Shown here one piece after another: positions 1 to 25,440 of a stretch of DNA of 39,870 nucleotides. A program made the translations under genes and the position numbers. The DNA is from Trichoplax sp. H2 (taxonomy: Eukaryota): the NCBI GenBank assembly GCA_003344405.1, contig NOWV01000181.1:34131-74000 (forward strand), in the 5' to 3' direction. How positions within the stretch are numbered: the first letter of the stretch is position 1; every line of letters begins with the position of its first letter. The notes beneath the pieces are model-generated. The model did no database searches and was not told the origin of the DNA. It was given only the letters and a program-made list of their open reading frames with translations.

Positions 1-370
1 GACATATCGTAATCTGACTATTCTGTATTAGTCATTACATGTCTATGTTCGTAAATACTGTTGTCTGCATTAAGGGAGCAGTAGCTAAAATTAATATCTA
101 ATTCAGTAAATGATTCTAATGTTAATTGTATTAACTATGACTCATGAACTATTGAGGAATAGTATATAAATGCAGTATATCGTGAAATAAAGAAGAATTG
201 TCCAACTTAGTGTTTAACGTAAAATACGAGGCGTTTAAGTCTTTGTGTAGTCTGCTAGTAGAGCAAAAGTGTTTGTGATAGTGCAGATATCGTTCCTTGA
301 TACGTGGTTCAAGGAATTGACTTATTGATCGTATATTGCGTTATCTTGTTGCAAAGCTGTTTTGTGACAG
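1..370. repeat. Left arm of a ~370-bp inverted repeat. Its reverse complement matches 8661..9029 at about 95% identity. It may extend beyond the window start.
   Basis: I reverse-complemented 8661..9029 by eye and it aligns base-for-base with 1..370 apart from a few substitutions and small indels (for example gttaattgtattaactatgactcatgaact, ggaggcgtttaagtctt and gttgcaaagctgttttgtgacag). The match diverges after gacag at about 370. Confidence 0.85.
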
Positions 371-1204
371 TCATGCAAATATGCTGAGTAGAATATAACA
401 GATACAATGTGTAGATGATTTACTATCGATCGACGTAAGCACCATTAATCGTATCAAGGAATTACTTGTAATAATGTGATTTAGTAATTATAATGACTGC
501 TGTTCATTCTAGACTATTTTATTTTCTATTAACTCTCCTAAGGGTAAATGTTAACTTATGATTTGGAAACTGAAGTTGTGAATTTCATATTGTAATGAAT
601 ACGTATGTAAAACTGATTTTCATTGCTACTTAAACGATATATTTCAAGTTTATAAAATTTAAGTTATGGTTATAAATTAAAGAGACGAAAAGTAAGAATT
701 TGACTCAAGCGTAACTCTTTATAATTAATTTTATTCAATGTAACAATGAAAATACTCATAAAGCTACTTATTTTTAGTTATTTATCACTAACTTGATAAT
801 CAATTCTTTGTGATACCGTGTTAAGATATTGTATTGTTACTTTATCTAATTTTTAAAATTTTACCTTGAGTTTTAATGAAGTTAGATAAGAACAAACCCT
901 GTACGTTTATTCTATGATTAAAACTGGGAATATTGTACTAGATAAATATAGTCCTTGTAAATATCACTAACGAATGGCAGAGTGCTACATCTTATCCTGT
1001 AAACAATAAGGTTCGTTCTCTACCTTCTACTGTATATATACTGTGGAAAGATGTCGATTTGGAAGTATAACTGTTATACCGGCTGAATATACGCCCATCG
1101 CGGAGCACTCTCACGCCATTGACTTGATGAATTGGAAATAGATTGGTATCGAGTAATCGCCTTGTAATTGAAGAATTTAAGCCTATATTCATTTTGATCG
1201 TATT

Positions 1205-1560
1205 TTCTGCTGGAATAGGAATCTTTTCAAATTGCACCTTTACATAATAAATAATTTATTAGCTTACTTCTAAGAAGAAACAAAATATACATCGATTAAT
1301 GGCCGATCATCGTAGTACCTTCCCCAAATTAAAAATCAGAGGTAATAATATAATCGTCACCCGGAAGTGAAAAATCTTCTAATTAAAGCAGTGTATACCC
1401 TATATGGATGTAGGGGTACAATCATTAATTTACATTCTTATTTCAACTTTGAGATTTACAACGTTATCATTTTCTATCAAATCTTCTAATATTGGGTTCT
1501 CGAGTTTATGTTTCCGTGTAGAAATGACCCATGAATATTTTCATCATTTACGGCATTAAG
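1205..1560. repeat. Dispersed repeat, copy A. Its homolog is at 20520..20900 in the same orientation, at about 75% identity.
   Basis: Shared blocks: ttttcaaatt(g/a)(c/t)accttt, aagaagaaaca(a/g)(a/g)atac(a/g)tcgattaat, tcacccggaagt(g/a)aaa and atcattttc(t/g)atca(a/g)atc. Confidence 0.6.
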
Positions 1561-2859
1561 TTAAAGCACTAGCTGAAGTAAGAATGGATCACTAGAAGAG
1601 ATTACCTTATTTCCTCCAGTCTTCATCGGCTACTTGAATCTTTGATCATAACATATTGCAGTAACTTATAATTGCTCAATATCAGCGCTATATCTACGCG
1701 TCTTAAAATATAAACTATTTTTTTTTTATTGACAATCAACACTAGCATATTAAATTAAAATTATTGCGTGAAATCATCAACAATCACGCGCACCTTAGAA
1801 GAAGAAATTTATTTAGCAGCTGTGTCAGTAATTCTTTTAGGTGCTTTTTTATCTTTATTGTTCCTGATATAATTAAATGATTTTCCCCAGGTTAAAATTA
1901 GTATTAAAAAGAAATTACTCACTGTTGTAAAGCCCAGTTTTAAAAATATTACAAGTGCATAACTATATCATTCTGTGTTTTTTAAACTGACTATGCTTGA
2001 TTAAAGCTAACATCTGTTACTTTGTAGTCTAATTTTATTAGCTCCACCTCTTACTATATAATATAAAATAATTGTGTACGATTTTATTGCCACGGTCCTA
2101 TGTCGTTTCAATCAAGTTGACATGAGTGTTTCTGATTGGCTGAAAAGGGATTACCGTCACTGTAAAAAAAGAACTTTTCAGAATTTACCGCAAAAGCGAA
2201 GAGTGTACAGAAACTTTACTGTTCAATTACGGGGAAATGCCTTTTTAATCTGAATCATCAGTATGATATCCAAGCTACTAACAAGGCGAGTCTTGTTTTT
2301 TATTACAGATCATTATATAAACAGTACAATCCTTGCAATCTCATCTAGATAACTTTCATAACTACTACATTAAGAGTGATTATTATGGTAGGATATTAAT
2401 GTTACAATACCACGGTGAATACCATTACCACATAATGAAAACCCAAAATATCGCAAATTAATCAATTAAATTAATCTATCATTACAGTCACAATTCTGTT
2501 TTGTACTGTGTTACACAATATCCAGTATACTGTACTGTAATATACCTTACATTCTTTATATATTATATATATATAATAATTCTACCCTATCTTGTAACAA
2601 TTTAGAACCTTAAGTTTGCCCAAATTTTGGTTATTTATTAAAAGAATTGTGCTTTACTTCACAATAATTAGCAAAACACACTTATACATATATTCGTACA
2701 GTATAATAATCCTGCTTTTTTTAAAGTTTACGAATATTTTTTATCCTAAATTTTGCAAGGAAAAAATTTATATTGAAGTGTAAAAAATGTTAAAGAAAGT
2801 ACACAGCAAATTATAATAAAAAAAATCGTCGATATAGTACGGAATAAAATAAATGTTTG

Positions 2860-3400
2860 TCTTTCCAGCGAACACTATCTTAACTTCAGTTGTCTATAGA
2901 TTGCATCGTAAGACAAACATACATTTTAAAATCTTGTACTACCTTATCTTTAGTTATCTATTAACTACATTATTAATTAATAACAGTTAGTAGGTAAACA
3001 GTTAATCGACCGAAGATCAATCGATATTGTGCAGTTTAATTGAATACACTTATTATTGGATTTCTCAAAACACATGAAATGTTAAAGCAGGAATTCAGAT
3101 GAAACTAACAACTACGTTCGGTCGAATATTTTATACATTTTAAACAAACGCATGTCATCTTTACGCTAACACTACTATACGTTTAGCCATTTGTAGACCA
3201 TATTATAAAACAACCGTCAGTCTTGACGACTAAGACTATTTTCCATTCAGTCGTTCATAAGTCGTCTGTAAACTTCATTAGAAATAAATGGATATCTTTA
3301 CGGCTAACACTACCTAATCTTCAGTCGCTTATAGACGGCATTATAAAATGAATGCATATCTTTAACGCTAACACTACTTTTAGTACCTGTTATGGAGCCA
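2860..3400. repeat. Degenerate tandem repeats of about 70-150 bp. Recurrent motif: (a)tctttacg(c/g)taacactac(c/t).
   Basis: The motif recurs at about 3146, 3292 and 3358. The related ttaacttcagttgtctatagattgcat at 2880 matches taatcttcagtcgcttatagacggcat at 3316. Confidence 0.55.
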
Positions 3401-5214
3401 AGCTCCAAAATAATAAAGGCCTTGTTAATTAAAATATATAATATAAATTGTTGTTTATACCCCAGTGGTCTAATAAGCGTTAATGAATACATGTTTATTG
3501 ATAAGGTTAATGTCTAAGTAATTGAATACTAATACCTAAGTGTAAGGCGTAATTTATACTGAGCCTTGAGGCTCTAATTGGCACAAATAAATTTATTATT
3601 CTTAATTAGCGTTAACTTATACTGATTTATGTTAACTTCTTCTATCTAAATTCCTACACTAAACAGCGTAACTAGTTATGTCTAAGATACTAACATATGC
3701 ACCATCGGCGGAGGCCGAGACTATATAAATTCGAGCACTAAATTAGCTGTTCAGTTCCTTTTAAAACATTTTTAGATTCACTTAATCATTTTTGCTAGGA
3801 GTTTTCTTAGGATATATCTCAATAAAGTAAATTCTTGAAGCCTATTACCCGTTGGTAGCTTATCTGTGTAGTCGAGAGTTAGTTCAACTACGATAAATCG
3901 CCTAAGTCAGTTGGGGACACGCGTAGTCGTGACAACAGCGTTTAAGACCTCTTCGAAAAGGCAATTCGTAACAGTGCCATACCTTTACATCCTGTTACGA
4001 ATTATAAAATACGAAATAATTGACAAGTAAAGTATGAAAAATGGCTAGATAATAAATCAACTGATAATTAACATTATACAAGAACCAAAAAATCTCTTCT
4101 TGAGCTGAATTTCGGACATTAGCCACAATTTTATCATAAAAATAAAGCTACGGGTAGGGCAACAAAATCTGTATTGCTCGCTTTATACAACATGTAAATC
4201 ACACTAAGAATAATTGCATATTTTATAACTGCTCTCTGGTGATTTGATTAGTCAAAAAAGTTCTTTATATCTATAGCGGAACTTCAAAATCGAGGACGAA
4301 CAACAACACTCGACGGCGCTCTATTAGCACGATACTTAAATTGTTTACAACATACAGATTATAAAATAAGATGAAGTAAACTTGCAAAACTAAGTAAGCC
4401 TTTTCAAATCTAAGAATCTTCTTCTACTCACTATGTTAACAATAGTATATTTTTGAAAGAGCTTCACTACTGTTAGTCAATTGCATAAAAATGATCAAAT
4501 TTATAGCAATAAGATAAATATTCGGATATTCATATTCTGATCGTTGTTAGTATCAATCAACACGATTGGTAATTTATTACCTGTTTTGGGTTTGCGACAA
4601 TGGGACTTTTGGCGAAAATATTTCCAATGCGTTAATAATTTAATAATCAATCGGGATGGAACAATGGAATATTAATATATATTAGAAATTTCTTGTTTTA
4701 TTCATTATAAGTAATTTCAATAATGGTCTATAATTGGAGGGAGATCAGCCATTTCTTCCTATAACCGACTTGATAGATCGTATTGTCTTACAATCAATGA
4801 ATTGGTTGTCAATCACGATCAGTTATGAACAAACTTTTATGATTGAAGTGTAGTTCCCACATGATACAACAATTTGCAGAACTTTCAGACGTATTGTTTT
4901 GATTCCATATTTAAGTAAACGTATGAAATCATGTCAAGTATCTGATCCTACGGGAGCGGTATGTAATATCTTTCAAATACAAAAATACACGATTCGAAAA
5001 TTATTAATTCATTAAATCGCTTAAGGCTATAACTTAAGGCATATCATGATAGTCTGTTCATATCAGCTGGACTGTTGGTGCGTTGACGCTGTAACGTTTA
5101 GTAAATGCAAGCATCCGTTTCCGTGTACCATCCTTTTATTTGGCAAATAGTCATCAGTAAAGCAGTAATTAAAAAAATTACAGATAAAATAGACTCTACA
5201 GTTCAAGGTAGAAA

Positions 5215-5766
5215 TATTGGAATTAATTGACAAGAAGAGCTTGCAGAATTAGCAATCCATCGATAAAACTTTTGAAATTGATTCCTCTTTCTTGATTTAT
5301 TTACCACTAACATCGATATTACGGTATTCATTTATGAAAAATTTAAACATTTTAATAGCAAAAGAGCATAACCCTACCAGAAAAGATCAAAATAGCCAAG
5401 CAATCGTGTGAAAAACTTAAAATTGATTCTATTTTACGATTAATATTGATGATTGATACTGATATTGATAATTCATTAACTGATATTAGACATTGATATT
5501 AATTGGCAAGAAGAGCTTGCAAAGTTAGCTATCCATCGCTGCTGGGACTTTCGAAATTGATTCCTCTTTCCAGATTCCAGCTGTAACTAATATTGATATT
5601 GTGTAAGGTATTCATTTCGTAAATTTGGACACTTTATTACCAAAAGAATATAACCTTACAGGAAAAGAGCGAATATAATCAAACTATCGTATCAAAAACT
5701 TAAAATTTGTTCTATTTGGCGGATAAATATAGACGACTGATACTGATTTTGAGAACCCACTCAGAG
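5215..5766 (+). promoter_or_regulatory. Two tandem copies (about 5215..5490 and 5491..5766) of a ~275-bp conserved upstream module ending 10 bp before the GPCR-1 ATG. Core sequence: TTGACAAGAAGAGCTTGCARAATTAGCAAYCCATCG.
   Basis: aattaattgacaagaagagcttgcagaattagcaatccatcg at 5221 matches tattaattggcaagaagagcttgcaaagttagctatccatcg at 5497. Downstream blocks (gaaattgattcctctttc, ccagaaaag/caggaaaag, aaaacttaaaatt) are also shared. A third copy lies upstream of GPCR-2. Confidence 0.7.
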
Positions 5767-5776
5767 CACAAAGAAT

Positions 5777-6913
5777 TTGATATATAAAATGAACGCTAGC
5801 TTTAATGACTTTATTAACAAGACCCAATCATTTCATAGTAATATTTGGAGCGATATAATTAGACGCACTGAAATCATGCAGCCGGCTTTGACTGTGATGG
5901 CCTGCTTATATATTATGATCATGGTTATAGCTATACCTGGTAATTCATTAATCTTATGGATTACTTTGGCCAACAGGCGCCTGAGGACACCGACAAACTT
6001 AATGGTTTGTAATTTAGCCGTAGCAGGATTGTTGTTAGCAAGCATACAGATACCTTTTAAAATTTTTGATCTTTTAAGCCCAATTCAGTCAAGATATTAC
6101 TATCCGTTTAGCGTTTCTGTATGCAAGATGACTCTAATGATACCTGGAGTATGTGTTACAGCAATATCGTTTACCTTAATGGCTATTTGCGTCGATCGAT
6201 ATCGTGCGATTGTAACTCCGATCAAATTTAAGTTGATAACCCATCCAGTTAAGGTCGCCATTTTTTTGCCATTATGTTGGTTATTTGCTTTCTCGCTTTT
6301 GGCGCCTTATGGTGCTTTTGCAACCATTCACCCATGGTTTGAACAACGCCAAGTTTGTGTTGTAAATTGGATGACTAACCACCATTTGGATATCATCTTC
6401 GTTAAAAATAGAATAGTGTACTTTATACCTTTCTCCAAGATGATCCTCTGGCTATTATTTATTATTCTAGTCTTTCTTGTGCCAACAATCATTATGACAA
6501 TGTTATACAGCATTGCCGCTCGAGTGTTGTGGCGTGAAGGGCTAGAAAAGATGCGAATGATGACTTCGATGAGTCTAGAATCCAGTTCGATTAGCCGTGA
6601 ACGATGTGCTAGCTTAAGTTTGGATGAGCATCGATTAAAAGCTCGAAAACGAACTATTAAAATTTTGATAGCCTGCTTTATCTTGTTTATTGCCAGCAAT
6701 TTACCGTATTATACTTTGCTCACGTTGTTTGAATTTAAATTAATTCAACTTCCAAATTATTTCGTACGTTATGGTCTGATCAATGCATTTGTGCTCTTAA
6801 ATTATACTTGCATTGCTTATAATGCCATTATTTATGGCTACTTTAATTATAACTTTCGGCGTAATGCTCCTCGATGGTTTCATTTGAAGAATTATTGTTC
6901 ACAGTGCAGATGA
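5777..6913 (+). CDS. Intronless rhodopsin-like (class A) orphan GPCR, 378 aa, paralog 1. The true start may be the second Met at 5789.
   Basis: Full-length ORF with seven hydrophobic segments. TM2 reads NLMVCNLAVAGLL and the DRY motif is CVDRYRAIV at the end of TM3. The TM7 motif is NAIIYGY (NPxxY with P replaced by A). N-terminal N-glycosylation sites are present (NAS). The C-terminal tail NYNFRRNAPRW is conserved with paralog 2. Confidence 0.85.
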   Translation: MIYKMNASFNDFINKTQSFHSNIWSDIIRRTEIMQPALTVMACLYIMIMVIAIPGNSLILWITLANRRLRTPTNLMVCNLAVAGLLLASIQIPFKIFDLLSPIQSRYYYPFSVSVCKMTLMIPGVCVTAISFTLMAICVDRYRAIVTPIKFKLITHPVKVAIFLPLCWLFAFSLLAPYGAFATIHPWFEQRQVCVVNWMTNHHLDIIFVKNRIVYFIPFSKMILWLLFIILVFLVPTIIMTMLYSIAARVLWREGLEKMRMMTSMSLESSSISRERCASLSLDEHRLKARKRTIKILIACFILFIASNLPYYTLLTLFEFKLIQLPNYFVRYGLINAFVLLNYTCIAYNAIIYGYFNYNFRRNAPRWFHLKNYCSQCR

Positions 6914-8660
6914 ATTAATGCACAAGAGCCGTGATAGGGATTCTATATTGTGGTAGAATGTCAACAATTTGCGGTTGATCAAAAACTACAGATAACTGAA
7001 AGTATCTAATGCAACTATATTAGATGACTAAAATAAGTAAGAGCTTTTAAATTGGCAGTAATTTGAATTTCCTTACTCTTTATTGATCTTATGTTTTGGT
7101 ATTGAAATTGAAATAGAAAGCTAAATCTTATTATACGATTTCAATGATACTACTCTTTCGAACACCACCGTAACTGTATTATTTAACTAATTGATATCTT
7201 TAATTTGGAGATGGTATGTTGATTCAAATAATTGCGACTTAGTAGTTCGTCGATGATGATGACGAAGTGAAAATAACTTCGAAAATTAACGTAAGAAAGC
7301 GTAATTTGGGAATATTGAATTTAGTCAATTGCTTACAGTTAATCAGTGTTGTATAACGAATGTTAATGACAATACAAAATGTTTTCAGCTCAGTAAAATA
7401 AATTCTCTAGACCTATCTGGAAAATGTCGCTAATTCTACGTGTTTTAATTAAGAGTAGTTTTTGCTTGGTTGGTAAAGTAAAGTTAGCATTTTATATTCA
7501 AAAGAGCAAGAGAAAATCTATGATCATTTGAATAAGTAAGAAATCTGCATACGGTATTAATTCTTAATGTTTAAACTATCGGAAAGATGAAATTATCTAG
7601 TAGGAATAAAAATATCTAATCATTGTATGGAATTCAAAGGAATCTCATTCTTGCATGATAAATTAATGAATTGCTGATAGAATTTCCAAAACTTTTTGGT
7701 GCATGGCTTTTGAATAATGAAGCGATAATTACTTCTTACACGACTTGATCGGTTGTGAGATTCTAGCCAATCTTTCATGGTCGATGGTAGAATGGTTTCG
7801 AAAATGTGACAAACAAATTTTAAATATAACAGATAATTAACTGATTTTGTACTAGGAGTTTATCGACTAAGATACATTTACTCTTGCATTTAAAACTGAT
7901 TCATAATTTAGTTATGAGTGCACTGATAGAATAATCTATGCCGTCTATGCCACTAAACCGTTAACAGACTAAATAGTCTGTAGAGCAACAATATTGATTT
8001 TAGTTTTTGAAGTAGTTTAAATTTTCTAGTTATAAATTTCCATTTGTAATAACAGTATTAAACGATAGCTTAGAGAGATTGGAGATATTAATTAATTAAC
8101 ATTTAATGTAACTTACCAGTAAACTATGCTTAAGAATACTGTTTCTTGTTTTAGTTATTGCTAACGTTAATACTAAATTTTGGCTACTTAAAAACTAATG
8201 AAGTAAATTGTAGATGGTGAAGATTTTCATTTATTATAGCAATAGAAAGAAAATACTGAACGCCAGTTAATAATGTAAATAAGTAAGAAAGCACAAATAA
8301 AATAAATAGGGTTGAATCAAATTGTCATATAGCATTAATAATCGTTATTAGTGCAAATGATTATACGCGTATTTCAATTTAATTTCTTAATTTAATAATT
8401 GTATTTAGATCCTTCTTCAATCATGTTAGCAGGTTTTGCTATATTTGTGCAAATACCTCGAGTGCATTACCAAGTAGGTAATTAATACCGGTATGTAGTA
8501 AAGGAATATTAATTTTGACTGACTGTAGGAATTTCTATGTTTTATGAGCTAACTCTTAACAATTTCAAAAGTAGACTTAAATTTGAGATTACTCGCTTGC
8601 TTACGGTATGTCGGCGATTTGATCATTCAAATTATTTTAATTGATGTACTGCATAAGTTG

Positions 8661-9029
8661 CTGTCACAAAACAGCTTTGCAACAAGATAACGCAATGTAC
8701 GATCAATAAGTCAATTCCTTGAACCACGTATCAAGGAACCATATCTGCACCATCACAAACACTTTTGCTCTACTAGCAGACTACATAAAGACTTAAACGC
8801 CTCGTATTTTACGTTAAACACTAAGTTTGAGAATTCTCTTTATTCCAATATATACTGCATTTATATACTATTCCTCAATAGTTCATGAGTCATAGTTAAT
8901 ACAATTAACCTCGGAATCATTTACTGAATTAGATATTAATTTTAGCTACTGCTCCCTTAATGCAGACAACAGTATTTACGAACATAGACATGTAATGACT
9001 AATACAGAATAGTCAGATTACGATATGTC
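8661..9029. repeat. Right arm of the inverted repeat paired with 1..370.
   Basis: Same alignment as the left arm. The repeat ends at 9029 (gatatgtc), which corresponds exactly to window position 1. Confidence 0.85.
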
Positions 9030-10514
9030 CTATCACGGAACATTTCCATGATAATTTACAATCTGCCATAAGTAAATTACAATCACAATGATTCGATCTG
9101 TAAGTAGATGATTTGCATTCCCTATTATAACTATTAATTTCAGTATGTGTATAAGTGTCACTGTGATAAAAAGTCAGTGCTATATTAAAACACAGTATAT
9201 CCAAATCAGAAGTTAACTAAATAAGGATAGTCTAATAGAATTATCCTAACATAGATATTTCTACTGTAATACAGTATTTAACACTATAACAGTTGCCAAT
9301 TAAGATCAGGTGCGAACAGCTTTGTAATTAACTTGTGAAATACAACGATAGACAACGCTGAGATTATGCATTGAATAGGCTATATTGTGATAAACTATTT
9401 TTCTCAAAAATAGTAAATGAATTATAGTTTACTGTTATGATATATACAAATCACGAGATTCCAAATTTTAGAAAAATAAGGGCTTTATTGAATCTTTACA
9501 AAGATTAACTACACACAGCTCTACTTTAGCCGAATACTACTACTAACGACTTCTAGAACGAACTAACAGAATAATCTGAAGTAGCATGCTTTTATACTTT
9601 TCGTAGCATTCGTAGCTACAATCTGTATGGCAACCTTTTACCTTATATTACACATAGTTAAATTATTCTTAGTAAGACTATTCTACTGCGGACCATCATT
9701 AATCCAATATGGATACGACTACAGTACTTACGTAGACATTATTTACACCAGCCAAAGTACAATGAATTAACCATATCCTAATATATGATTTACAGTTCTA
9801 TTTTTACCTAAAGCCTAATTAGTAACTCAACACCTCACCGTATATAGTCATGTGTACTCTAGCATAGAGTCTATACCACTACAGTCTATAGTTATAGCTA
9901 CCAAATATCTGTTAGGATAAATATCTACCGTATATTAAACTTGGCTAACAGTCTACAATCACAATACTAGTTACATTACAACTGTAAACTTGGATTCACA
10001 ACCTATATCTGGTTTATCTTACACTTATTCATATTGTGGCTTCTAATTGAATTATCACAATGTGAATTTTATACTGCTAACGCAAGCTATATATAGTATA
10101 TAACATTAAATAAAAATTTTTATGTTTTATTAACGATAAACAACTTGAATAATAGACCTCCATGTAAAATCCATCGTTTATTTGCGTTACCTTTCTATTA
10201 AATCTCATTGGTTTAATTGATAAATACGTTGTCAATCACGATAAGGTATGAGCAGCTGGTTTAAATTAACTCCCAAAATATGAATATATGTAATTCAGAG
10301 ATTATAACTCTATAAATGATTTGAAGCTATAAAATAAAGCTAATCACAATTATCTTTTCATATCTGTTTGGCCACGATACATTGTAATTAAAAGTAGAAT
10401 CATACGTTTTCGTACAGTGATTATTTTATTATACAGAAACATATTAAGATAAAGAAGACTCTGTTTTGAAAATTTCGATAGACTGACTCTACGTTTCATA
10501 GCAGAGACATTGGT

Positions 10515-10790
10515 ATAAACTGACAAGAAGAGCTTACAAAATTAGCAACCCATCACGGAAAATTATTGCAATTTATTTCGATTTCTGGACTACTTTTGCG
10601 ACTTATAATTATATCAATATTGTGAACGGCATCCAGTAGCAAATTTAGATATTTTGTTATCAATAAAGTATCGTACCATCTTATCAGAAAAGTGCTAAGG
10701 CCAAAATTAACTAATCGTCTTAAAAGCTTGAAATTTATAAAACTTTATGATCAAGACTCATCGTTAATACCGATATTGAATATCCATTTA
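10515..10790 (+). promoter_or_regulatory. Third copy of the conserved ~275-bp upstream module, located 70 bp upstream of the GPCR-2 ATG.
   Basis: ctgacaagaagagcttacaaaattagcaacccatcacgg at 10520 matches the core at 5228 and 5504. Downstream blocks atcagaaaagtgctaaggccaaaat and cttaaaagcttgaaattt also match the other copies. Confidence 0.65.
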
Positions 10791-10859
10791 GAACACGAAG
10801 ACTCTATAATATTGAAATTATCTATCATTTAGACAAATATCACTAAGTAAATCATCAAA

Positions 10860-11996
10860 ATGAATAACAGCATTAATGACTTCGTGAATAACTCTCAGGC
10901 AATCATAAATAATATATCCGGTTATATTGAAAGAATTGAAGTTATACGAACAGCTTTGACCATAATAGCCGTCATATACGTTACGCTAATACTTATAGGT
11001 ATTCCTGGCAATTTATTAATTATATGGATTACTTTGGCTAACAAGCACTTGCGGATACCGATAAATTTATTGGTTTGTAACTTGGCCCTTGCTGGATTGC
11101 TAATAGCAAGCTTACGAATTCCAATTACAATTTTCGAACTTTTATTCCCCATTCAATTTGCTAATCACTATCCGTTTACTCTTTCAGTCTGCAGATTGTC
11201 TGAAATTGTGCCAGGTGCATGTGTCATAACAATATCTCTTACGTTAATGGCTATTTGTATCGATCGATATCATTCGATTGTACATCCAACAAAGTACAAA
11301 CTGAGAATGAATCCAGTTAAGGCCATTATTTTTTTGATATTATGCTGGTTGTTCGCTTTCTCGTTTTGGATACCATATGCATTTTTTATTAGGATTGGTA
11401 GCTCTACGAGATATCGCTATTGCTACACAATTTGGCCTTCAAGTCCGTTATTGGATGTAAGAATTCCTAATTCCGCTTATGGAAATATCATAATACCATA
11501 CTCAAAAATGATTTATTTGCCACTCTATTTCATTCTGATCTTTCTTATCCCAATTACCATTATGACGACATTATATATCATTACTGCTAAAAAATTGTGG
11601 CATACAAGGCCTGAACATATGTTAACAACAGCGCTTAATAGTACAAAACCCAATGCGACTACTAGTAAACGATCCGATAACATATCTCAGGATGGACATC
11701 GACTTCATGCTCGAAAACGGATCGTTAGAATTTTCATAGCTTGCTTTATCTTATTTATTTTCAGCAATCTGCCATATTACATGATCACAATCTTAATTCA
11801 ATTTGGATTAATTCCAGTTTGGAGTGGTAACAGTGAATTTGTACTGTATAGAGTTTTTATTCTCTTGAATTACTCCTGTGTTGCTTATAATGCCATTATT
11901 TATGGCTACTTTAATTACAACTTTAGACGTAAAGCTCCCCGATGGTTACAGTATAAATGTCCGCAATGTAGATCAGCAAGGCTATCAGCAAAGTAG
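10860..11996 (+). CDS. Intronless rhodopsin-like (class A) orphan GPCR, 378 aa, paralog 2. It is a tandem duplicate of 5777..6913.
   Basis: The two proteins are collinear and highly similar by eye. WITLANKHLRIPINLLVCNLALAGLL aligns with WITLANRRLRTPTNLMVCNLAVAGLL, CIDRYHSIV with CVDRYRAIV, and NAIIYGYFNYNFRRKAPRW is identical in the tail. Both are 378 aa. Confidence 0.85.
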   Translation: MNNSINDFVNNSQAIINNISGYIERIEVIRTALTIIAVIYVTLILIGIPGNLLIIWITLANKHLRIPINLLVCNLALAGLLIASLRIPITIFELLFPIQFANHYPFTLSVCRLSEIVPGACVITISLTLMAICIDRYHSIVHPTKYKLRMNPVKAIIFLILCWLFAFSFWIPYAFFIRIGSSTRYRYCYTIWPSSPLLDVRIPNSAYGNIIIPYSKMIYLPLYFILIFLIPITIMTTLYIITAKKLWHTRPEHMLTTALNSTKPNATTSKRSDNISQDGHRLHARKRIVRIFIACFILFIFSNLPYYMITILIQFGLIPVWSGNSEFVLYRVFILLNYSCVAYNAIIYGYFNYNFRRKAPRWLQYKCPQCRSARLSAK

Positions 11997-12899
11997 AATA
12001 ATGCCAACAATTTAGTGTTCATGAATTGTTTTCGCAAATAAAATCACAGCAGAAGCGATAATTACAGGATGAAATACATCAATACCTATTTTTAATTCAT
12101 AGTAGCTTAAAGTGAGGAGCTGCTTTTTCCATGCTTCACTATTTTAAGCTATTTCAACTTTGCCACTTCTTTCACGAACTGCTATTTATCGGTATTGTTT
12201 AATTAATTTATGAATTCCTCCAATTTTGTCTTAGTAGGTTATGTTAAAGAAAAGGCAATGTGATTATCACGATTATGTGAAATTAAAGCTAACAATATGA
12301 ATCAGCAGTTGCAATTTGCGGACATTAAATTGCGTAGAACGCTTGAAGTTAATTTATTTTGGACAGCTCATGTATAGTTCAATGTAAAAATGATCTCAAC
12401 TCAATTCAAGCAACTAGACCAAGCCTTTCAAGAAAATACAGTCGTTTTTGCTTTCTTAATTGAAATCTCCATTTAAAGGCATTATTTAACTTAATGACTG
12501 CTAATGATGAACATGAGTCAGCTCATATCTAAAGTAAACTTGAAACTTGCTTATCATGTAATTCCTAATTTCGTAATTCCAATAAATAGGAATTATTTAT
12601 AATAGCATAATGAGAATATCCAAGTATTGTATGTAAATGAAAAACCTAATTCTTGCAATATAGATTGCTTAAGTTCTGATAGAATTTAAAAAAGTATTTG
12701 CTGCATAGTTTAGAATAGCACAGTGATAGGTACCGTAAAATACTTTATTGGCAACAGTGAGAATCTAATGTATGCTACCCTGGGCTTGACCTGAAATACA
12801 AGCTCCAATTGGCATTTCTTAATGATACTTCTGGCACAAGTACAAATAACAGATACATTACAAAATCATATGCTATCACGACTAAAACTGAAAATAAAT

Positions 12900-13300
12900 T
12901 ATGTGTCGGCAATACGCCAGTAATATTTCGATACAGATGAGACAAGTGAATTAACTTATTCGATAATATTGCTATTTAGCAGCAAGGGCTTCGCTGAAAA
13001 TAAGCTGTGTGTCCGTAATACTCAAACAATATCGTCGATACAAAATAAATATAAGCTACTTAAAGATAATTTACATATCAATCGGTATTGCTGTTTTGTG
13101 TCTCAGATTTAATTGAAATCAAACTATGAATCATTAATGAACGAACGATATTGTCTAGGCAAATGAGACAAGTAAATTAACCTACTTGGGTAATATTGCT
13201 ATTGGCATCACGAATTGCATAGAAAATGCGTAAACTAAGTGCTGATAATGCTGTAACTTAGATACAAATAAGACAATTGGTTGACATTTTCGGCAATATT
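12900..13300. repeat. Degenerate minisatellite of about 120 bp with about 4 units.
   Basis: Recurring unit ...gatacagatgagacaagtgaattaacttattcgataatattgctat.... Variants occur at about 12903, 13010, 13150 and 13260. Confidence 0.5.
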
Positions 13301-16250
13301 TTAAGTATTAAGCATTTTACCTCTAGAAATGAAGTGGTAATAAACGGTGCAGTAATGCTTTAGTAAAATCGAGAAAAATATTCAAGTTAAGCAGCAAACA
13401 TAACAAGGTTGGTATTGAAAAATTATCTCGTAGATCGTTAATTTCTGCAAGTTTTCAATTTAAATAGTATTTTATGCTAGAATGGCAAGCTTTTCAAATG
13501 ATACGCTATGAAGAATTTTACAACGACACATTTTATGAGCCTTCTTCTACCTGTTGAGGTACGAGTAATAGTATAGCTAGCAAGGATAGCTGGAAAAAGA
13601 TTACTTACAACAATATCTGCTCTTAGAAATTAGGAACTTAGAACAATACTCTAAAGAAAAAGCGAAACTGCTAAAATATGAAATTAACGTTGTGTATATC
13701 AGATTGTGAACAACATCAATTAAACTTTCAGAACTTAATTTGCACCGGAGATTCTATGATTATACTTGTACACTAGCCTATCTAAACAGCTTTACTACAG
13801 GCAGTCAACTGCATAGCAGTTATCAAATTCATAGTTTTCGGATAAATTGTATTATGCGAAACTCGTATTCTGATATTAAAACGATTTGTATCCATATGAA
13901 GTTTGTGGTTGAGGCGCTATATTACATTAACATATTGATAAATTAAATTGTATTTCAAATTTAACATCTGGCATTCTGTAGACTTCCATTCGACTTAGTT
14001 TACCTATTTGCCAATAAAGAGCTATCATATCCTCCTATCTTTCGTGCATCTGTGATAATATTTATTAGGTTAAACAGGAACTATTAAGACTAAAGATATA
14101 GATTTGACAAACAAGAAGCTAAATATGATATTTGCACCGATGTTGCTATTGATGAAGATGAGCATTGAAAAAAACGCTACAGTAATTGAGCGTTGTGCTG
14201 TAATATTTAAATGGACAGATGACAACAAAATGTATACTATACTGCTTGTATAGATAACACAGCTGTTATGGAGTTTGTTACGATTATTTACGGTTAGGTA
14301 CGATATTATGTAACGTAGTTTTCCATTAACGGTCATGGCTTTAATTAATCCGAACACAAACTAGTCCAGTAGTATGGTACATATACGCATTGAATATGTA
14401 TGGTAACAGTTTATATAGACGCATTAGTTAAGGCGTTACCATCATAGCTATCTTAATTATGGAAATATTCAGGATCGTCAGTAAATGACATTTAACGATA
14501 CTAAATATTTGCCTAGATAAAATACCGGCTTTCTTGTAAATAATTTATAATTTCTTACTTGGTAATCCCTGATCTTTAATATCTTAAGAGATCTCAATTT
14601 AAATGAAGTAATTTAAAGGGATTTTCATTGATTCTAGAGCACGGCAGGTTATACTGAATAACTTAGTTAAATAAGATGACCAGGAGAAAATAACCTTAGC
14701 AGTTAGAATCAGGAAGTGCAATTTGGACATAGTTAACCTAGTCGATTACTTAGAGTTAATAGATATTGAGCAGCGAAAACTAACTACAATATAAAGATTT
14801 GTTTCTTAGCTCAATTAAATAGACTATACTACAAATTTAAAGAAAATATTACACTTTATCGGTATTTATTTAATTCAAAGCCCAATCATAATATTTGAAA
14901 CAGTACAATTAGCAAATTTGTTTGAAAGGTCGAAAAAAATCAACTTTCATCTAAAAATAACCGGAAATCCATATACGGTTGTTATACTTCTCTTACTCTC
15001 TGAGACATAGACTCCTTACAAACCCCAGCTTTTACTCCAGCAACACAATACGCAAATCTTAGAACTTTAAAATCGCCTTTTATTCACGTAGCCTTTGTAA
15101 TGAAATGAAATGTGTAGGAATCAAGCTACAAAACTTTTAACTAACTTCTGATCCTACTTTCTTTGCACTCTGGTCGACTTAATAACACTTTGACACCTAA
15201 TAAAATTGGGTAAACAACGGATCAACAATTTATTAAGAAAATGAGTGATAGACTAATCAAACAACCTTCCAAATGCTTAATTCTAGGTATTATCAATAAC
15301 GAAATAAAAAAGCGACAGAACTGATACTGTCAGCAACCAAACAACCTAACAAATAGAAGAACGCTTTAACTTATATCAGTTCGACCCAGAAGGTCTTTAA
15401 AATTTAACTAGTTCTTCAAATAATCATCTTTTACTCTCTACCTTAAATTTTCTGATTGCACTATTATTTATAGGCTTCACAGAGCCCCTGGTGGAATTTA
15501 AAACTAAACATTTACTAATCAATCATTCTGACGATCCATTTTAGATAACTACTTTGCACCGCTTAAGAAAACAAAAATTATTGAGACACAGTCTGCTCTA
15601 CGATTCCTTACAAAACACTATAAAACCAAACAAACTATCTATGAAATACTCTAAAATTCATCAAGCTTCACTTTCAACATAATTTGTAATCATTATTTCG
15701 GACTTTACTTAATAATTCCAATTAGCAGATTACAATATTACAATTATAACTATAATTACAATTTCAATTAGTATTATTATTACTAGAATCATATTATAGT
15801 AAATTTTGTCAATCAATTCGGCTTACTATTGACAAACATGTAACTTATATCATATCTATCTTGTCCAATACTTGTAACTGATTTAATAACTGGTCTATGA
15901 TTTACAGGCGCTAAACAAATAATCATCTAATTTGAAGGCATAGAGGTTGTTATAGGACCAATACTACTGCCCGTTACAATTCTAAATTTGTAACGGAAAA
16001 ATTTCATTTTAAACCTAGAATCTAAATACTACCCATATTACAATTCCAAATAATGGCGATCATCCATCGCCAGGAGGAACAGCAATGTATTTATATAGGA
16101 AAGAATGTATAATGTCATAGATAAGACCATTCTCAATAAATATCAAAGGATGTTATCTCTAGCGGAAATAAGATATGCGTTACTTATCAAAAAATCGCTA
16201 AGCGACAGCTACTGTATATATTGTCAGATATTACTAAATTTAATTTCTTT

Positions 16251-17735
16251 TTATCTTCTTTTACAACCTAGATTTATGCCATTAGCTGGAGACATAGTTA
16301 TGCCACACCTTAATGGTAAGGGAACATCTGTTTCTTCAGTAGTAATTAATTCTACACTTCGTAAAATTTTCACAAGGGCCAATTTAACCTCTAGCAGAGC
16401 CAATCTCTTTCCGATACAATTTCGTGGCCCGTTGCCAAATGGAAGAAATGCGCAAGCTGCGTGCTTGGATTTCTCCTCCGGCGTGAAGCGTTCAGGCATA
16501 AACTGCTCTGGATTAGGCCATAAATTAGGATTATGATGAATAGCATAGATAGGAATAGCAATCATAGCCTCTTTTGAGATCTGATGACCATCAATTGTAA
16601 TATCATTTTTGCATTTTCGAGTAACTCTAAATGCGGGTGGATAGATTCTTAATGTTTCCAATATAACCATTTCTAGATAGGGTAAGTCCGATACACAATC
16701 ATAATCTAAAGGATCAGTATCGTTAAGTTTTGTTTTAATTTCATGATATAATCGACGCTGTATTTCTGGGTTTATTGCCAATAAGTAGGTGGCAAACGCT
16801 AATGTATTTGCTGTCGTTTCGTAACCTCCCACGAGAAAGACCAAAGCCTGAGCGATAATTTCTTTGTCGTCTAATTTATCGTTATCACCAGCTTCGATCA
16901 TCTGTTGTAACATATCTCTACGGCATGAAACGCCTTCAGACATATTTTTCCTCCTTTCCTTAATTACATTTCTGCAAGTATCCGCTAAATAATTTAGCGA
17001 GTTCATAAACTGCCCACCAAATAGTGGCTCTAAAATACGAAATAACGGTGTTGCAAATAATAGCAGTATATGCAGTAGACCAGGTGAATTACTCGCTAGC
17101 TGACTAGCAGCACCAGTTAATCTCTTTTCTTGTTCTTTCGATTCAAATTCTATTCCAAAGGCAGAAGCAAGAATAACCTTCATTGTAAATTTGCCACAAA
17201 TCCTCCATAACTCAATAGAACGGCCTTCTTTTTCTGCGTTTAATAACATTACAACAATTTCATTACTAGCCTTGTCAACACAGGGGAAAGTGAGCTTCAA
17301 CTTTGATGTGCTAAATGTAGGTATTAAAATATTCCTTACACGCTTCCAGTCCGTATCTCTCAATTCTACTAACGTTTTATTAAACGGTTCTAAATTATTA
17401 GCGATACCGAAACGGTTAGTGAAATTGGAGAAGTCCTTGATTAAGACTGATTTCAATACTTCTGGATCGCCAATCCAGATGGTAGGGACGGAAAAAAATA
17501 AAGTGCCATACACATGACCGTATTTTTCTTGTCTTTCTACTTGGACTAAGTGCTGCGAAGCCGATTTACCATCCAACAAGTTGCCAAAAAGGGGTTTAGG
17601 ATGGGGACCACTTAATCCCAATTTTCTCAAATGACGATAAGGTTTAAGGTAGTACTTGTAAAAACACCAGGCCAGAATTGTACCTGATATTAATAAGATT
17701 TGCGATATTGATAACTGCAACCCAATCATGTTCAC
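16251..17735 (-). CDS. Cytochrome P450, CYP3-clan (CYP3/CYP6-like), 494 aa, single exon.
   Basis: Full-length ORF with an N-terminal membrane anchor and KYG.VYG near the N-terminus. I-helix VGGYETTANTL, EXXR motif (ILETLRIYPP), PERF motif (FMPERFTPEEK) and heme-binding loop FLPFGNGPRNCIGKRLA are all present. The overall arrangement is collinear with CYP3A-type proteins. Confidence 0.9.
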   Translation of the reverse strand: MNMIGLQLSISQILLISGTILAWCFYKYYLKPYRHLRKLGLSGPHPKPLFGNLLDGKSASQHLVQVERQEKYGHVYGTLFFSVPTIWIGDPEVLKSVLIKDFSNFTNRFGIANNLEPFNKTLVELRDTDWKRVRNILIPTFSTSKLKLTFPCVDKASNEIVVMLLNAEKEGRSIELWRICGKFTMKVILASAFGIEFESKEQEKRLTGAASQLASNSPGLLHILLLFATPLFRILEPLFGGQFMNSLNYLADTCRNVIKERRKNMSEGVSCRRDMLQQMIEAGDNDKLDDKEIIAQALVFLVGGYETTANTLAFATYLLAINPEIQRRLYHEIKTKLNDTDPLDYDCVSDLPYLEMVILETLRIYPPAFRVTRKCKNDITIDGHQISKEAMIAIPIYAIHHNPNLWPNPEQFMPERFTPEEKSKHAACAFLPFGNGPRNCIGKRLALLEVKLALVKILRSVELITTEETDVPLPLRCGITMSPANGINLGCKRR

Positions 17736-19439
17736 AGTTTTCCTGTACTGTATACTGAATTTCTAGTTAAAATAAGTCATAAAATACTCCAGGAAGATAT
17801 TAACACGTTATTACTTTTTCTCTGATGAAAGTAAATGTTACAGGATGCTATATAATATGAAGTTAATGCTTAAAGGCGATAATAATTCTTCAATCTTCTA
17901 GTCTATGCAGGTTTTAAGATTGATAAATTGATTTCAATTCTGGGAGATTTTGTAAACTTTATAAAGGCATTAATTTAATACAGGTATAAAAGCTTTAGTG
18001 TTTTTTTACGTCGATGAGTAAATATTCTAGGGGGTAGAATCTAGTTTTAGATTAAAACTTGAAGATGACCGACGAATTTTCCTTTGGCTAATTCAGCCAG
18101 ATTTTCAGGCTTGATAAAACGATTTTAGTCTGAGAAAAGTTGTAAATATTTAAGGTAAGAATGGCGGAGAACGTGTATGATAGGGAATCTATTTTCCAAT
18201 AGTGAATTTTATAGGCTTGTGCCGTTCCAATTACCAAGGCAGGAATTTAGCAAAGCTAATAGCTTACTTTAGAAGACTAAATAACGATTTTCTGTGTAAC
18301 GATTTACGTTCTTCAACATTAACTAAGCAATAAGCCAATGCACAGGATCAACTTTATCTCGCTACCAAGATTGCTAGTACATACAGTTAAATGTACTGTA
18401 TATCAGTTCTTTTACGCTGCTAAAAAGAGATCCAGAAGTGGACTGGAATAAAGAAACCTGTAGATAATATAACTGTACTATTGGAAGAATACAATTTGAT
18501 CTACTTTAATACTGTGTCAATAATGGACTTAGCCTATATGCTGGAGTAACTACGATACTTCTTGCTCGTTTATTCGCGATTTGATAGCACATTTCTGCAG
18601 ATTTTAGCTTATACGAGTATGGCTATGTGCTCGGCTGATAGAATATCCTTTACAGTCTTTTAGCTTATTCCATCTGTCCGAAGGAAAGGTAATTTTATGC
18701 AAAAGATGGTTGCTTTCTAAGTTCCTCGTATCAAAATATAGTGTAAATCATATATAGCACATTGCCATGTATGGGCCCTGTTGATGCTTCTATTTGTATA
18801 CAAATACTGCAATGTCAATAAATTAAATCATTCGACATCGTATAACCTTACCTCCAACTAATATCTTGCATTTTACTATCAAAGGCCTGACTAATATAGC
18901 GATATCCTCCACTTAGTATCAATAGAAACTAGACGTTTAAACTTACCAGTATAGGTCAAAGATGTCGCTATTGGCTCTTACTTGGTATCAATTGCTGAAA
19001 TTAAATAGGGTTCGAATTTCCCCCATTTAATGAATGATCCTACGATTGACGAGTATACGCGTATGTCTGCATGTTGATAGCTCTATGGCTACAAATTACT
19101 GCTATTCTATCTGTGATGGAGGGTTAATGATTTTACAGAGGCAGATCTATAACCAATTAGAAATTGATAACAAGGCATTGCGTAAGAAAATAGATTCTTT
19201 ATCATAGACTACAACTGTGAGATAGTTACGCTAGAAAAGGTTGTAAACTGTTGTGAAATAATGTAAGAATAATGAATACTGTGACTAGTTTCGCTTATCC
19301 TCAATCTCTCCATAAATCTATAATCATCATATACCCAAGAAATTGACAACGTCTCATTATCACCACAAAGTCCAGCAATACAGGCTATGGTTTATAATAA
19401 GATGTAAAACTACTGCAAGATTTCATCTACTATCTTGCA

Positions 19440-24811: not shown

Positions 24812-25287
24812 GTTTTAAACTATTTCCAATCTGAAACCACAGACACCATACTATCTGAAGATGTTGCTTCGTTAACGCAATATTTATGGGCAGAAGCCGT
24901 AGGAGAATTAGATGAAATATTATCATCATCCGTGGAAGAGATTACGAACGAAAATATTGCATCAGCGGAAGGGATTCTCCTCAAATTAAAGACCTGCCTA
25001 TCCGAAAACCGCTATGATCAAATCAGCAACCTTAGTCAACAATTTTACTCCTTAATTCCACACAAAAATGATGATATAACTATTGATTCATTCCGATTAA
25101 TTAGTGATAAGCAAGATCTTTGTCAATTAATACGGGACATCATTAACGTTAGTGAATTAACCGATTGGAAGATGGATAGTAGTATAAATGCCAAGTACAA
25201 AGCATTAAAGTGTGATATTCAAAATTTGGAAGAAAACAGCCATGAATTTAAATCCATAAAGAATTATACTTTATCATCCTGGAAAGG
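24812..25287 (+). CDS. PARP4: PARP4-like exon, PARP alpha-helical regulatory domain.
   Basis: ..LTQYLWAEAVGELDEIL.., AEGILLKLKTCL, LSQQFYSLIPHKN, KQDLCQLIRDIINVSE and AKYKALKCDIQNLEENSHEF match the vPARP/PARP1 regulatory domain (FYxLIPH, DLCQLIRD). The acceptor is ctactag at 24811 and the donor is agg|GTAAGT at 25288. Confidence 0.75.
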
Positions 25288-25440
25288 GTAAGTTAAAGTT
25301 ATCTTACTTTACAGTAAATAATGTTCATTACTTATTTGCTAGAAACGGAAATTCCAAAAAACTAAATACTGATTTAAAAAGTCTATAAACTTTTACGATC
25401 ACAGCGAGCCTACAACAATAAAAATTAATAGAATATTTAG

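What the first reader, a model, noticed from the sequence alone, without database searches (positions are those of the whole stretch)
1..9029. 8.3-kb cassette carrying a GPCR gene, bounded by ~370-bp inverted repeats at about 95% identity
Positions 1..370 are the reverse complement of 8661..9029. The interior (371..8660) contains the intronless GPCR paralog 1, its duplicated upstream module and short tandem repeats. It contains no transposase-like ORF. The left arm begins exactly at the window edge, so the repeat may be longer. The structure could be a large non-autonomous TIR element that has captured or transduced a receptor gene. It could also be a palindromic or inverted segmental duplication boundary, or an inversion-prone recombination substrate. 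Any of these would be relevant to how this GPCR family duplicates.
Basis: seen in the sequence. Interest (0 to 1): 0.6.

Follow-up and report, generated by a model that had tools for sequence, protein, structure and literature searches.

The report
Two inverted solo-LTR copies, not a cassette
The inverted repeat is real, but its two arms are separate insertions of one small retrotransposon-type repeat (an LTR) that happen to lie on either side of an ordinary placozoan receptor gene, so it is not a mobile gene-carrying cassette.

Summary
Window 1-369 is the reverse complement of 8662-9029 (356/368 identical, one indel). The window is Trichoplax sp. H2.

The arms are not the ends of one element. 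The right arm is part of a discrete 630-bp unit (8662-9291, minus strand). It has TGTTA...TGACA termini and a perfect 5-bp target-site duplication (GCAAC).

A third copy lies on another T. adhaerens (H1) scaffold. It has the same termini and its own 5-bp duplication (ATGTT).

The left arm is the last 369 nt of a further copy, cut by the window edge. It ends at ...GACA. Colinearity with the H1 reference starts at the very next base. H1 has a clean empty site there, yet it carries the whole 8.3-kb interior and the right copy.

The structure therefore arose from two independent insertions of an LTR-like repeat. One is shared by H1 and H2; the other is H2-specific.

The GPCR pair is an older direct tandem duplication and is unrelated to the repeat. 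A second solo-LTR-like family sits 144 bp away.

This is ordinary transposon biology. The one mildly notable point is an insertion difference between H1 and H2, in a genome where transposons are described as inactive.

The parts
1..369 (+). LTR1 copy A. This is the 3' 369 nt (unit positions 263-630) of a 630-bp LTR-like repeat, cut by the window edge. It is present in Trichoplax sp. H2 and absent at the orthologous site of T. adhaerens H1.
   Evidence: It is 356/368 identical to copy B. It ends in ...TTTTGTGACA at 369. Colinearity with H1 (99.4% over 16.5 kb) starts at 370. The H1 empty site reads TAGTCAATAT|GTCATACAAA and H2 reads TTTTGTGACA|GTCATGCAAA.
370..374 (+). GTCAT. Predicted right-hand copy of the 5-bp target-site duplication of copy A. 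It occurs once in H1.
   Evidence: The left-hand copy lies outside the window, so this is an inference.
8657..8661 (-). GCAAC (read on the minus strand). Target-site duplication on the 3' side of copy B.
8662..9291 (-). LTR1 copy B. A complete 630-bp solo-LTR-like unit, 5'-TGTTATAG...TTTGTGACA-3'. It has one TATATAAA (unit position 425) and one AATAAA (position 448). It has no terminal inverted repeat beyond TGT/ACA and no coding capacity. It is identical (630/630) in H1.
9292..9296 (-). GCAAC (read on the minus strand). Target-site duplication on the 5' side of copy B.
   Evidence: GCAACTG occurs only 5 times on both strands of the window, so about 0.04 occurrences are expected within 700 nt.
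9436..9980 (+). 'Rep2'. An unrelated second solo-LTR-like unit of 545 bp, TATGAT...TTACA, flanked by the perfect 5-bp duplication ACTGT (9431-9435 and 9981-9985).
   Evidence: It is 91% identical to L003 14258-14809 (552 bp, TGTGAT...TTACA, own duplication CTAAT)., alignment A2.
5789..6913 (+). GPCR paralog 1. An intronless rhodopsin-family receptor, RDD38352.1 in H2 and TRIADDRAFT_61584 in H1. It is an ordinary chromosomal gene lying between the two LTR1 copies.
5222..5783 (+). Tandemly duplicated upstream module of GPCR1 (period 284, 2 copies). One copy of this module lies upstream of GPCR2.
10860..11996 (+). GPCR paralog 2 (RDD38357.1 in H2). It is a direct tandem duplicate of GPCR1 with about 74% nucleotide identity. 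It is not bracketed by any inverted repeat.

Best explanation
The inverted repeat is a by-product of two independent insertions of one dispersed, non-coding repeat of about 630 bp, called LTR1 here. Its features are those of a retrotransposon long terminal repeat: TGTTA...TGACA termini, no terminal inverted repeat, a 5-bp target-site duplication, and a single conserved TATA box and AATAAA.

Copy B (8662-9291, minus strand) is a complete solo LTR. It sits in the spacer between two tandem GPCR genes and is shared by Trichoplax sp. H2 and T. adhaerens H1.

Copy A (window 1-369, plus strand; about 262 nt more expected to the left) inserted 8.3 kb away in the opposite orientation, on the H2 lineage only. 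It is either another solo LTR or the 3' LTR of a full-length element.

The 8.3-kb interior is ordinary chromosomal DNA that was already in place. The GPCR was not captured or moved.

Shown: the repeat, its termini, the duplications of two complete copies, a third locus, and the empty site in H1.

Inferred: that the unit is an LTR rather than another 5-bp-duplicating element, what lies left of the window, and that the insertion is later than the H1/H2 haplotype split.
For: - IR confirmed at E of about 1e-173.
- The window is Trichoplax sp. H2. GPCR1 equals RDD38352.1 exactly and GPCR2 equals RDD38357.1 exactly, both on a 160,366-bp scaffold.
- Window 370-16914 is colinear with H1 DS985264.1 at 99.4%. 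Window 1-369 matches H1 only at the right copy, in reverse.
- H1 has a precise empty site at the base after ...GACA.
- Copy B is 630 bp, TG...CA, flanked by GCAAC/GCAAC.
- A third copy lies at L003 4469-5050 on H1 scaffold DS985245.1. It is 92.8% identical apart from a 50-nt deletion and starts and ends at the same unit positions. Homology stops exactly at both termini. It has its own perfect duplication, ATGTT/ATGTT.
- No inverted pair joins the two ends of the unit.
- TATATAAA and AATAAA each occur once and are invariant in all three copies.
- The termini fit the TGTNR pattern that PMC2836005 gives for Gypsy LTRs.
- An unrelated second unit with the same architecture (TG/TA...CA, 5-bp duplications ACTGT and CTAAT) lies 144 bp away and again in L003. 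Such solo-LTR-like repeats are therefore a common kind of repeat in these regions.
- LTR copies are 93-97% identical, while the GPCR paralogs are about 74% (nucleotide) or 49-52% (protein). The repeats therefore moved independently of, and later than, the gene duplications.
Against: - No full-length element (paired LTRs with gag-pol, primer-binding site and polypurine tract) could be found. The tools give no whole-genome DNA search of Trichoplax.
- The left end of copy A and its second target-site duplication are outside the window.
- The TSD of copy B on its own has a chance probability of about 4-12%. It becomes convincing only together with the L003 copy.
- The published surveys read here (PMC2871265, PMC6057997) report very little LTR retrotransposon sequence (0.04-0.16%) and regard the TEs as inactive. 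However, most of the 6.6% repeat content is 'unclassified interspersed'.
- H2 is a short-read, reference-guided assembly, so a scaffold-end problem cannot be fully excluded.
Confidence: 0.85

Rival explanations
1. One large non-autonomous TIR element (Pack-MULE-like or Ginger-like), about 9 kb long with TIRs of 370 bp or more, has captured the GPCR gene and moves as a unit.
For: There is a real inverted repeat of about 370 bp bracketing a gene, with no transposase inside. Mutator and Ginger elements exist in placozoans (PMC12221973, PMC6057997).
Against: - H1 has the interior and the right arm but not the left arm.
- The precise termini are at the inner ends of the arms.
- The right arm is part of a 630-bp unit with its own 5-bp duplication, and a stand-alone copy exists elsewhere.
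- The 5-bp duplication and the lack of TIRs do not fit Ginger in metazoans, which has 4-bp duplications and 40-270-bp TIRs (PMC2836005).
- Nor do they fit Mutator, which has 9-11-bp duplications (general knowledge).
Confidence: 0.02
2. An inverted segmental duplication or fold-back rearrangement in H2. The left arm would be the edge of a longer inverted copy of the region right of 8661, extending leftward beyond the window.
For: The left arm is cut by the window edge, so its true length is unknown. H2 departs from H1 colinearity exactly here.
Against: - The inner boundary coincides to the base with the terminus of a mobile unit that has independent copies and duplications. A rearrangement breakpoint would fall there only about 1 time in 630 by chance.
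- The arms differ by 3.3%, while H1 and H2 differ by 0-1% locally.
Confidence: 0.05
3. An assembly artefact. The first 369 bases would be a wrongly joined repeat fragment at the end of a short-read H2 scaffold (MaSuRCA plus AlignGraph).
For: - H2 is a short-read, reference-guided assembly (PMC6057997).
- The window begins inside the repeat.
- The arm is absent from the independent H1 assembly.
- No H2 orthologue of the H1 gene just upstream (TRIADDRAFT_61583) is on record.
Against: - The junction lies exactly at the element's CA terminus, with no shared sequence that could cause a false join.
- The arm is not a copy of the nearby right arm (12 substitutions and 1 indel), so it derives from a real, separate genomic copy.
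Confidence: 0.07

Closest known systems
Solo LTRs of LTR retrotransposons (Ty3/Gypsy-type; in Trichoplax the reported LTR elements are mostly Gypsy, including the 'Tag' clade, PMC2871265)
   Same: - TGTNR...YNACA-type termini.
- 5-bp target-site duplications.
- Length of 580-630 bp, with no ORF and no TIR.
- Dispersed copies whose homology ends exactly at the termini.
- A presence/absence difference with a clean empty site.
- A single TATA box and poly(A) signal.
   Different: No full-length parent with gag-pol, primer-binding site or polypurine tract has been tied to this LTR. The superfamily (Gypsy, Copia or BEL) is undetermined.
Pack-MULE / gene-capturing TIR DNA transposons
   Same: Long inverted repeats bracket a host gene, with no transposase inside.
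   Different: - The termini face inward.
- The arms carry their own 5-bp duplications.
- The related lineage H1 has the interior but only one arm.
- The expected 9-11-bp duplication around the whole unit could not be shown.
Ginger1/Ginger2 DNA transposons (PMC2836005)
   Same: TGT...ACA termini of the Gypsy-integrase type. Ginger is the main DNA transposon group reported in Trichoplax (PMC6057997).
   Different: Metazoan Ginger elements have 40-270-bp TIRs and 4-bp duplications. This unit has no TIR and 5-bp duplications.
Inverted repeated elements as substrates for non-allelic homologous recombination (inversions)
   Same: Two copies about 97% identical, at least 369 bp long, in opposite orientation and 8.3 kb apart.
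   Different: There is no evidence of inversion. The H2 interior is colinear with H1.

Membership tests
LTR of an LTR retrotransposon (solo LTR) | 5'-TG...CA-3' termini (TGTNR...YNACA in Gypsy-type) | tested here: met
   Copy B reads TGTTA...TGACA. The L003 copy reads TGCGA...TGACA. Copy A ends ...TGACA.
LTR of an LTR retrotransposon (solo LTR) | 4-6-bp target-site duplication directly flanking the unit, different at each locus | tested here: met
   GCAAC/GCAAC in the window and ATGTT/ATGTT in L003. For copy A only the right side (GTCAT) is visible.
LTR of an LTR retrotransposon (solo LTR) | Dispersed copies whose similarity ends exactly at the termini, plus an empty site in a related genome | tested here: met
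   Three copies on two scaffolds (alignment A1). H1 has an empty site at L001 4499/4500.
LTR of an LTR retrotransposon (solo LTR) | A full-length element exists: two direct LTRs flanking gag-pol, with a primer-binding site and polypurine tract | not testable with these tools
   No whole-genome DNA search of Trichoplax is available. A protein search with LTR ORFs found nothing.
LTR of an LTR retrotransposon (solo LTR) | Promoter (TATA) and polyadenylation signal inside the unit | tested here: inconclusive
   There is one TATATAAA (position 425) and one AATAAA (position 448), both invariant in three copies. The motifs are short and the genome is AT-rich. No transcript data were available.
Gene-carrying TIR DNA transposon (Pack-MULE-like) | The whole unit is present or absent as one piece, with termini and duplication at the outer ends of the TIRs | tested here: not met
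   H1 has the interior and right arm without the left arm. The sharp termini are at the inner ends. The right arm's homology unit runs on to 9291.
Gene-carrying TIR DNA transposon (Pack-MULE-like) | Transposase, or relation to an autonomous partner | tested here: not met
   No Pfam transposase, RT or integrase hit in any ORF of 1-9600.
Ginger DNA transposon | 40-270-bp TIRs and 4-bp duplications in metazoans (PMC2836005) | tested here: not met
   No inverted pair links the unit's ends. The duplications are 5 bp.
Inverted segmental duplication | A single-copy pair whose homology is not bounded by mobile-element termini | tested here: not met
   A third copy exists elsewhere. The inner boundary is the element terminus. 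The outer extension on the left is not testable.

The most novel reading that the evidence does not exclude
In H2 the two inverted LTR1 copies would present integrase-type ends facing outward on both sides (TGTTA...TAACA). Bao et al. (PMC2836005) proposed this arrangement as the origin of Ginger TIRs. The pair could be a nascent composite element, or an invertible 8.3-kb segment that flips or mobilises a neuropeptide-type GPCR gene.

A tamer version is much more likely. The H2-specific insertion shows LTR retrotransposition after the H1/H2 haplotypes diverged, in a phylum whose transposons are described as inactive.
Probability: 0.03. Interest if true: 0.6.

Novelty: new member of a known kind. 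Interest (0 to 1): 0.2.

Why it matters
The finding removes a tempting but wrong reading, namely gene capture by a transposon as a route of GPCR family expansion in placozoans. The GPCR pair is a plain direct tandem duplication that predates the repeat insertions.

The modest positive result concerns repeat content. Two families of solo-LTR-like units with clean 5-bp duplications occur repeatedly in about 86 kb of sampled Trichoplax sequence, and one copy differs in presence between H1 and H2. Two things follow:
- Part of the 'unclassified interspersed repeats' of placozoan genomes may be LTR remnants.
- LTR elements transposed more recently than the published 'inactive' description implies.

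Tried and rejected
- Rfam (E up to 1) and ARAGORN on the arms and interior gave nothing relevant.
- A protein-database search with concatenated ORFs of the LTR, meant to find other copies, gave no hits.
- Exact-pattern scans of JGI metagenome contigs with two conserved LTR segments gave 0 hits.
- Exact look-ups of H2 proteins and window ORFs, meant to fetch the H2 scaffold or independent assemblies left of position 1, found nothing on record. The left flank in H2 could not be read.
- I tried to learn whether the H2 scaffold starts at the window edge, using the H2 orthologue of the upstream H1 gene. I rebuilt TRIADDRAFT_61583 from its exons (after a brute-force attempt timed out). It has no H2 relative in the database, so this was uninformative.
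- Placozoan GPCR contigs from ENA metagenomes (L004-L006) carry neither repeat family.
- The inverted repeats that one search listed under 'L002' were not repeats within L002. The query file held both L002 and L003, and resolved the main ones as L002/L003 cross-matches and an L003-internal Rep2 pair.
- I tested whether differences between the two arms are concentrated in the older copy. They are not (5 versus 4 sites), so no relative dating is claimed.
Full report
**Observation.** The inverted repeat is real. The repeat finder reports arms 1-193/8837-9029 and 194-370/8661-8837 at 97%. A global alignment gives 356 matches, 12 mismatches and one 1-nt indel over 369 nt, and BLAST gives an E-value of about 1e-173. 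No other inverted pair of comparable size exists in the window.

The interior holds an intronless rhodopsin-type GPCR (Pfam 7tm_1, E = 1e-29). It also holds a tandemly duplicated upstream module (5222-5783, period 284). No ORF has a transposase, RT or integrase match. Rfam and tRNA scans found nothing relevant.

**Origin of the window.** GPCR1 is TRIADDRAFT_61584 of Trichoplax adhaerens with one substitution. It is identical to RDD38352.1 of Trichoplax sp. H2. GPCR2 is identical to RDD38357.1 of H2. Both H2 proteins sit on a 160,366-bp scaffold. The window is therefore from the H2 assembly, a short-read MaSuRCA assembly extended with AlignGraph against the H1 reference (PMC6057997).

**Comparison with the H1 reference.** I fetched the H1 reference around TRIADDRAFT_61584 (L001 = DS985264.1:436082-457119). 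This includes 4.1 kb to the left of the point corresponding to the window start.
- Window 370-16914 aligns colinearly to L001 4500-21038 at 99.4%.
- Window 1-369 matches L001 only at 13154-12786, that is, the right arm in reverse.
- At the colinear position H1 has unrelated unique sequence.
- The junctions read TAGTCAATAT|GTCATACAAA in H1 and TTTTGTGACA|GTCATGCAAA in H2.

H1 therefore carries the full 8.3-kb interior and the right arm but has a clean empty site where H2 has the left arm. This alone rules out the cassette having arrived as one unit.

**What the arms are.** Reading outward from the right arm, I found that ...TTTGTGACA at 8662 is followed by GCAAC. The same GCAAC, directly followed by TG, occurs at 9296-9292. 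This delimits a 630-bp unit (8662-9291, minus strand), 5'-TGTTATAG...TTTGTGACA-3', with a perfect 5-bp flanking duplication. On its own this has a chance probability of roughly 4-12%, so I looked for independent copies.

Loci around two other T. adhaerens GPCR paralogues were fetched (L002 and L003). L003 (scaffold DS985245.1) contains a third copy at 4469-5050.
- It is 92.8% identical apart from a 50-nt deletion.
- It begins with TG at the same unit position and ends with ...GTGACA.
- Similarity to the window stops exactly at both termini.
- It is flanked by its own perfect 5-bp duplication, ATGTT/ATGTT.

The unit is therefore a discrete mobile repeat. It has no terminal inverted repeat linking its ends and no coding capacity. 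It has one TATATAAA and one AATAAA, both invariant in all three copies. Its termini fit the TGTNR pattern described for Gypsy LTRs (PMC2836005). These are the properties of a solo LTR.

The left arm is the last 369 nt (unit positions 263-630) of another copy in the plus orientation. Its CA terminus coincides to the base with the H1/H2 colinearity breakpoint.

**A second family.** An all-against-all comparison of the loci showed another unit, Rep2.
- In the window it lies at 9436-9980 (545 bp, TA/TG...ACA, duplication ACTGT/ACTGT).
- It has a 91%-identical copy at L003 14258-14809 (duplication CTAAT/CTAAT).
- Fragments occur in L002 and L003.

It lies 144 bp from LTR1 copy B, in the GPCR1-GPCR2 spacer. 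Solo-LTR-like repeats thus recur in the roughly 86 kb sampled. They probably fall among the 'unclassified interspersed repeats' that make up most of the 6.6% repeat content reported for both genomes (PMC6057997).

**Relation to GPCR duplication.** GPCR1 and GPCR2 are direct tandem duplicates.
- Their coding regions are about 74% identical.
- Upstream and downstream modules were co-duplicated (5174-5477 with 10469-10788; 7605-7716 with 12609-12717).
- LTR1 copies are 93-97% identical to each other and have no counterpart at the paralogous position after GPCR2.

The insertions are therefore younger than the gene duplication and unrelated to it. GPCR2 and the paralogue in L002 are not bracketed by these repeats. 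The paralogue in L003 has one LTR1 copy 5 kb upstream and one Rep2 copy 3 kb downstream.

**Mechanism.**
- Shown: two copies of one mobile unit in opposite orientation, one shared by H1 and H2 and one only in H2.
- Inferred: each arose by integrase-mediated insertion of an LTR retrotransposon. For copy B this was followed by LTR-LTR recombination that left a solo LTR.
- Unknown: whether copy A is solo or the 3' LTR of a full-length element, because the window starts inside it.

A multi-copy element at that point would also explain a scaffold end in a short-read assembly. I could not establish whether position 1 is the scaffold end.

**Rivals.**
- A gene-carrying TIR element is contradicted by the H1 comparison and by the inward-facing termini.
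- Ginger elements are excluded by the 5-bp duplication and the lack of TIRs.
- An inverted segmental duplication would need a breakpoint exactly on an element terminus.
- An assembly artefact is unlikely for two reasons. The join is exactly at the CA terminus without shared sequence. The arm also differs at 13 positions from the nearby copy. Only reads spanning the junction can exclude it.

**Novelty and interest.** This is ordinary transposon biology and the cassette reading should be dropped. One point is mildly interesting. Published surveys call Trichoplax transposons scarce and inactive (PMC2871265, PMC6057997). Here an LTR insertion differs between H1 and H2 with a clean empty site, and two LTR-like families recur locally. 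As a generic consequence, the inverted pair could mediate inversion of the GPCR1 segment in H2. There is no evidence for that, since the H2 interior is colinear with H1.

Noticed in passing
window 9436-9980 (duplications at 9431-9435 and 9981-9985); L003 14258-14809; fragments at L003 2501-2699, L003 1975-2191 and L002 5599-5682: A second, unrelated solo-LTR-like repeat family ('Rep2', about 545-552 bp, TG/TA...CA). It has perfect 5-bp duplications at two loci (ACTGT and CTAAT). It sits 144 bp from the right LTR1 copy in the GPCR1-GPCR2 spacer.
   Followed up: partly
window 370-16914 versus L001 4500-21038: Differences between H2 and the H1 reference are mosaic. There are none across most of window 6-12 kb, which includes the right LTR1 copy (630/630 identical), and roughly 0.5-2% in 1-kb bins elsewhere. 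This fits the block-wise H1/H2 relatedness described by Kamm et al. (PMC6057997).
   Followed up: partly
window 5789-5875 and 10860-11996; L001 about 14985-16121: The annotated GPCR1 models in H1 and H2 (345 aa, starting at 5876) look N-terminally truncated. The ATG at 5789 adds MNASFNDFINKTQ..., which parallels the N-terminus of GPCR2 (MNNSINDFVNNSQ...). GPCR2 is annotated in H2, but no gene is called at that position in the H1 assembly.
   Followed up: no
window 307-330 and 8715-8738; L003 4521-4546: A perfect 8-9-bp hairpin (TTCCTTGA-N8-TCAAGGAA) is conserved in all three LTR1 copies, about 60 nt from the 3' terminus. Its function is unknown.
   Followed up: no
window 19429-22090: A cluster of diverged direct repeats (units of about 220-280 bp, 66-80% identity; families D2-D4 and D11). 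In addition, 1215-1372 is 72% similar to 20529-20688. These were not characterised.
   Followed up: no
window 16251-17735 (minus strand): A single-exon cytochrome P450 ORF of 494 aa (Pfam p450, E = 2.5e-104), next to the GPCR pair. A PARP regulatory-domain exon lies at 24932-25291.
   Followed up: no
L001 4021-4308 (H1, about 190 bp left of the empty site): An unannotated 95-aa ORF with hydrophobic segments and no Pfam match. It ends 190 bp before the site where H2 carries the LTR1 insertion. No H2 relative of the neighbouring H1 gene TRIADDRAFT_61583 is in the protein database.
   Followed up: partly
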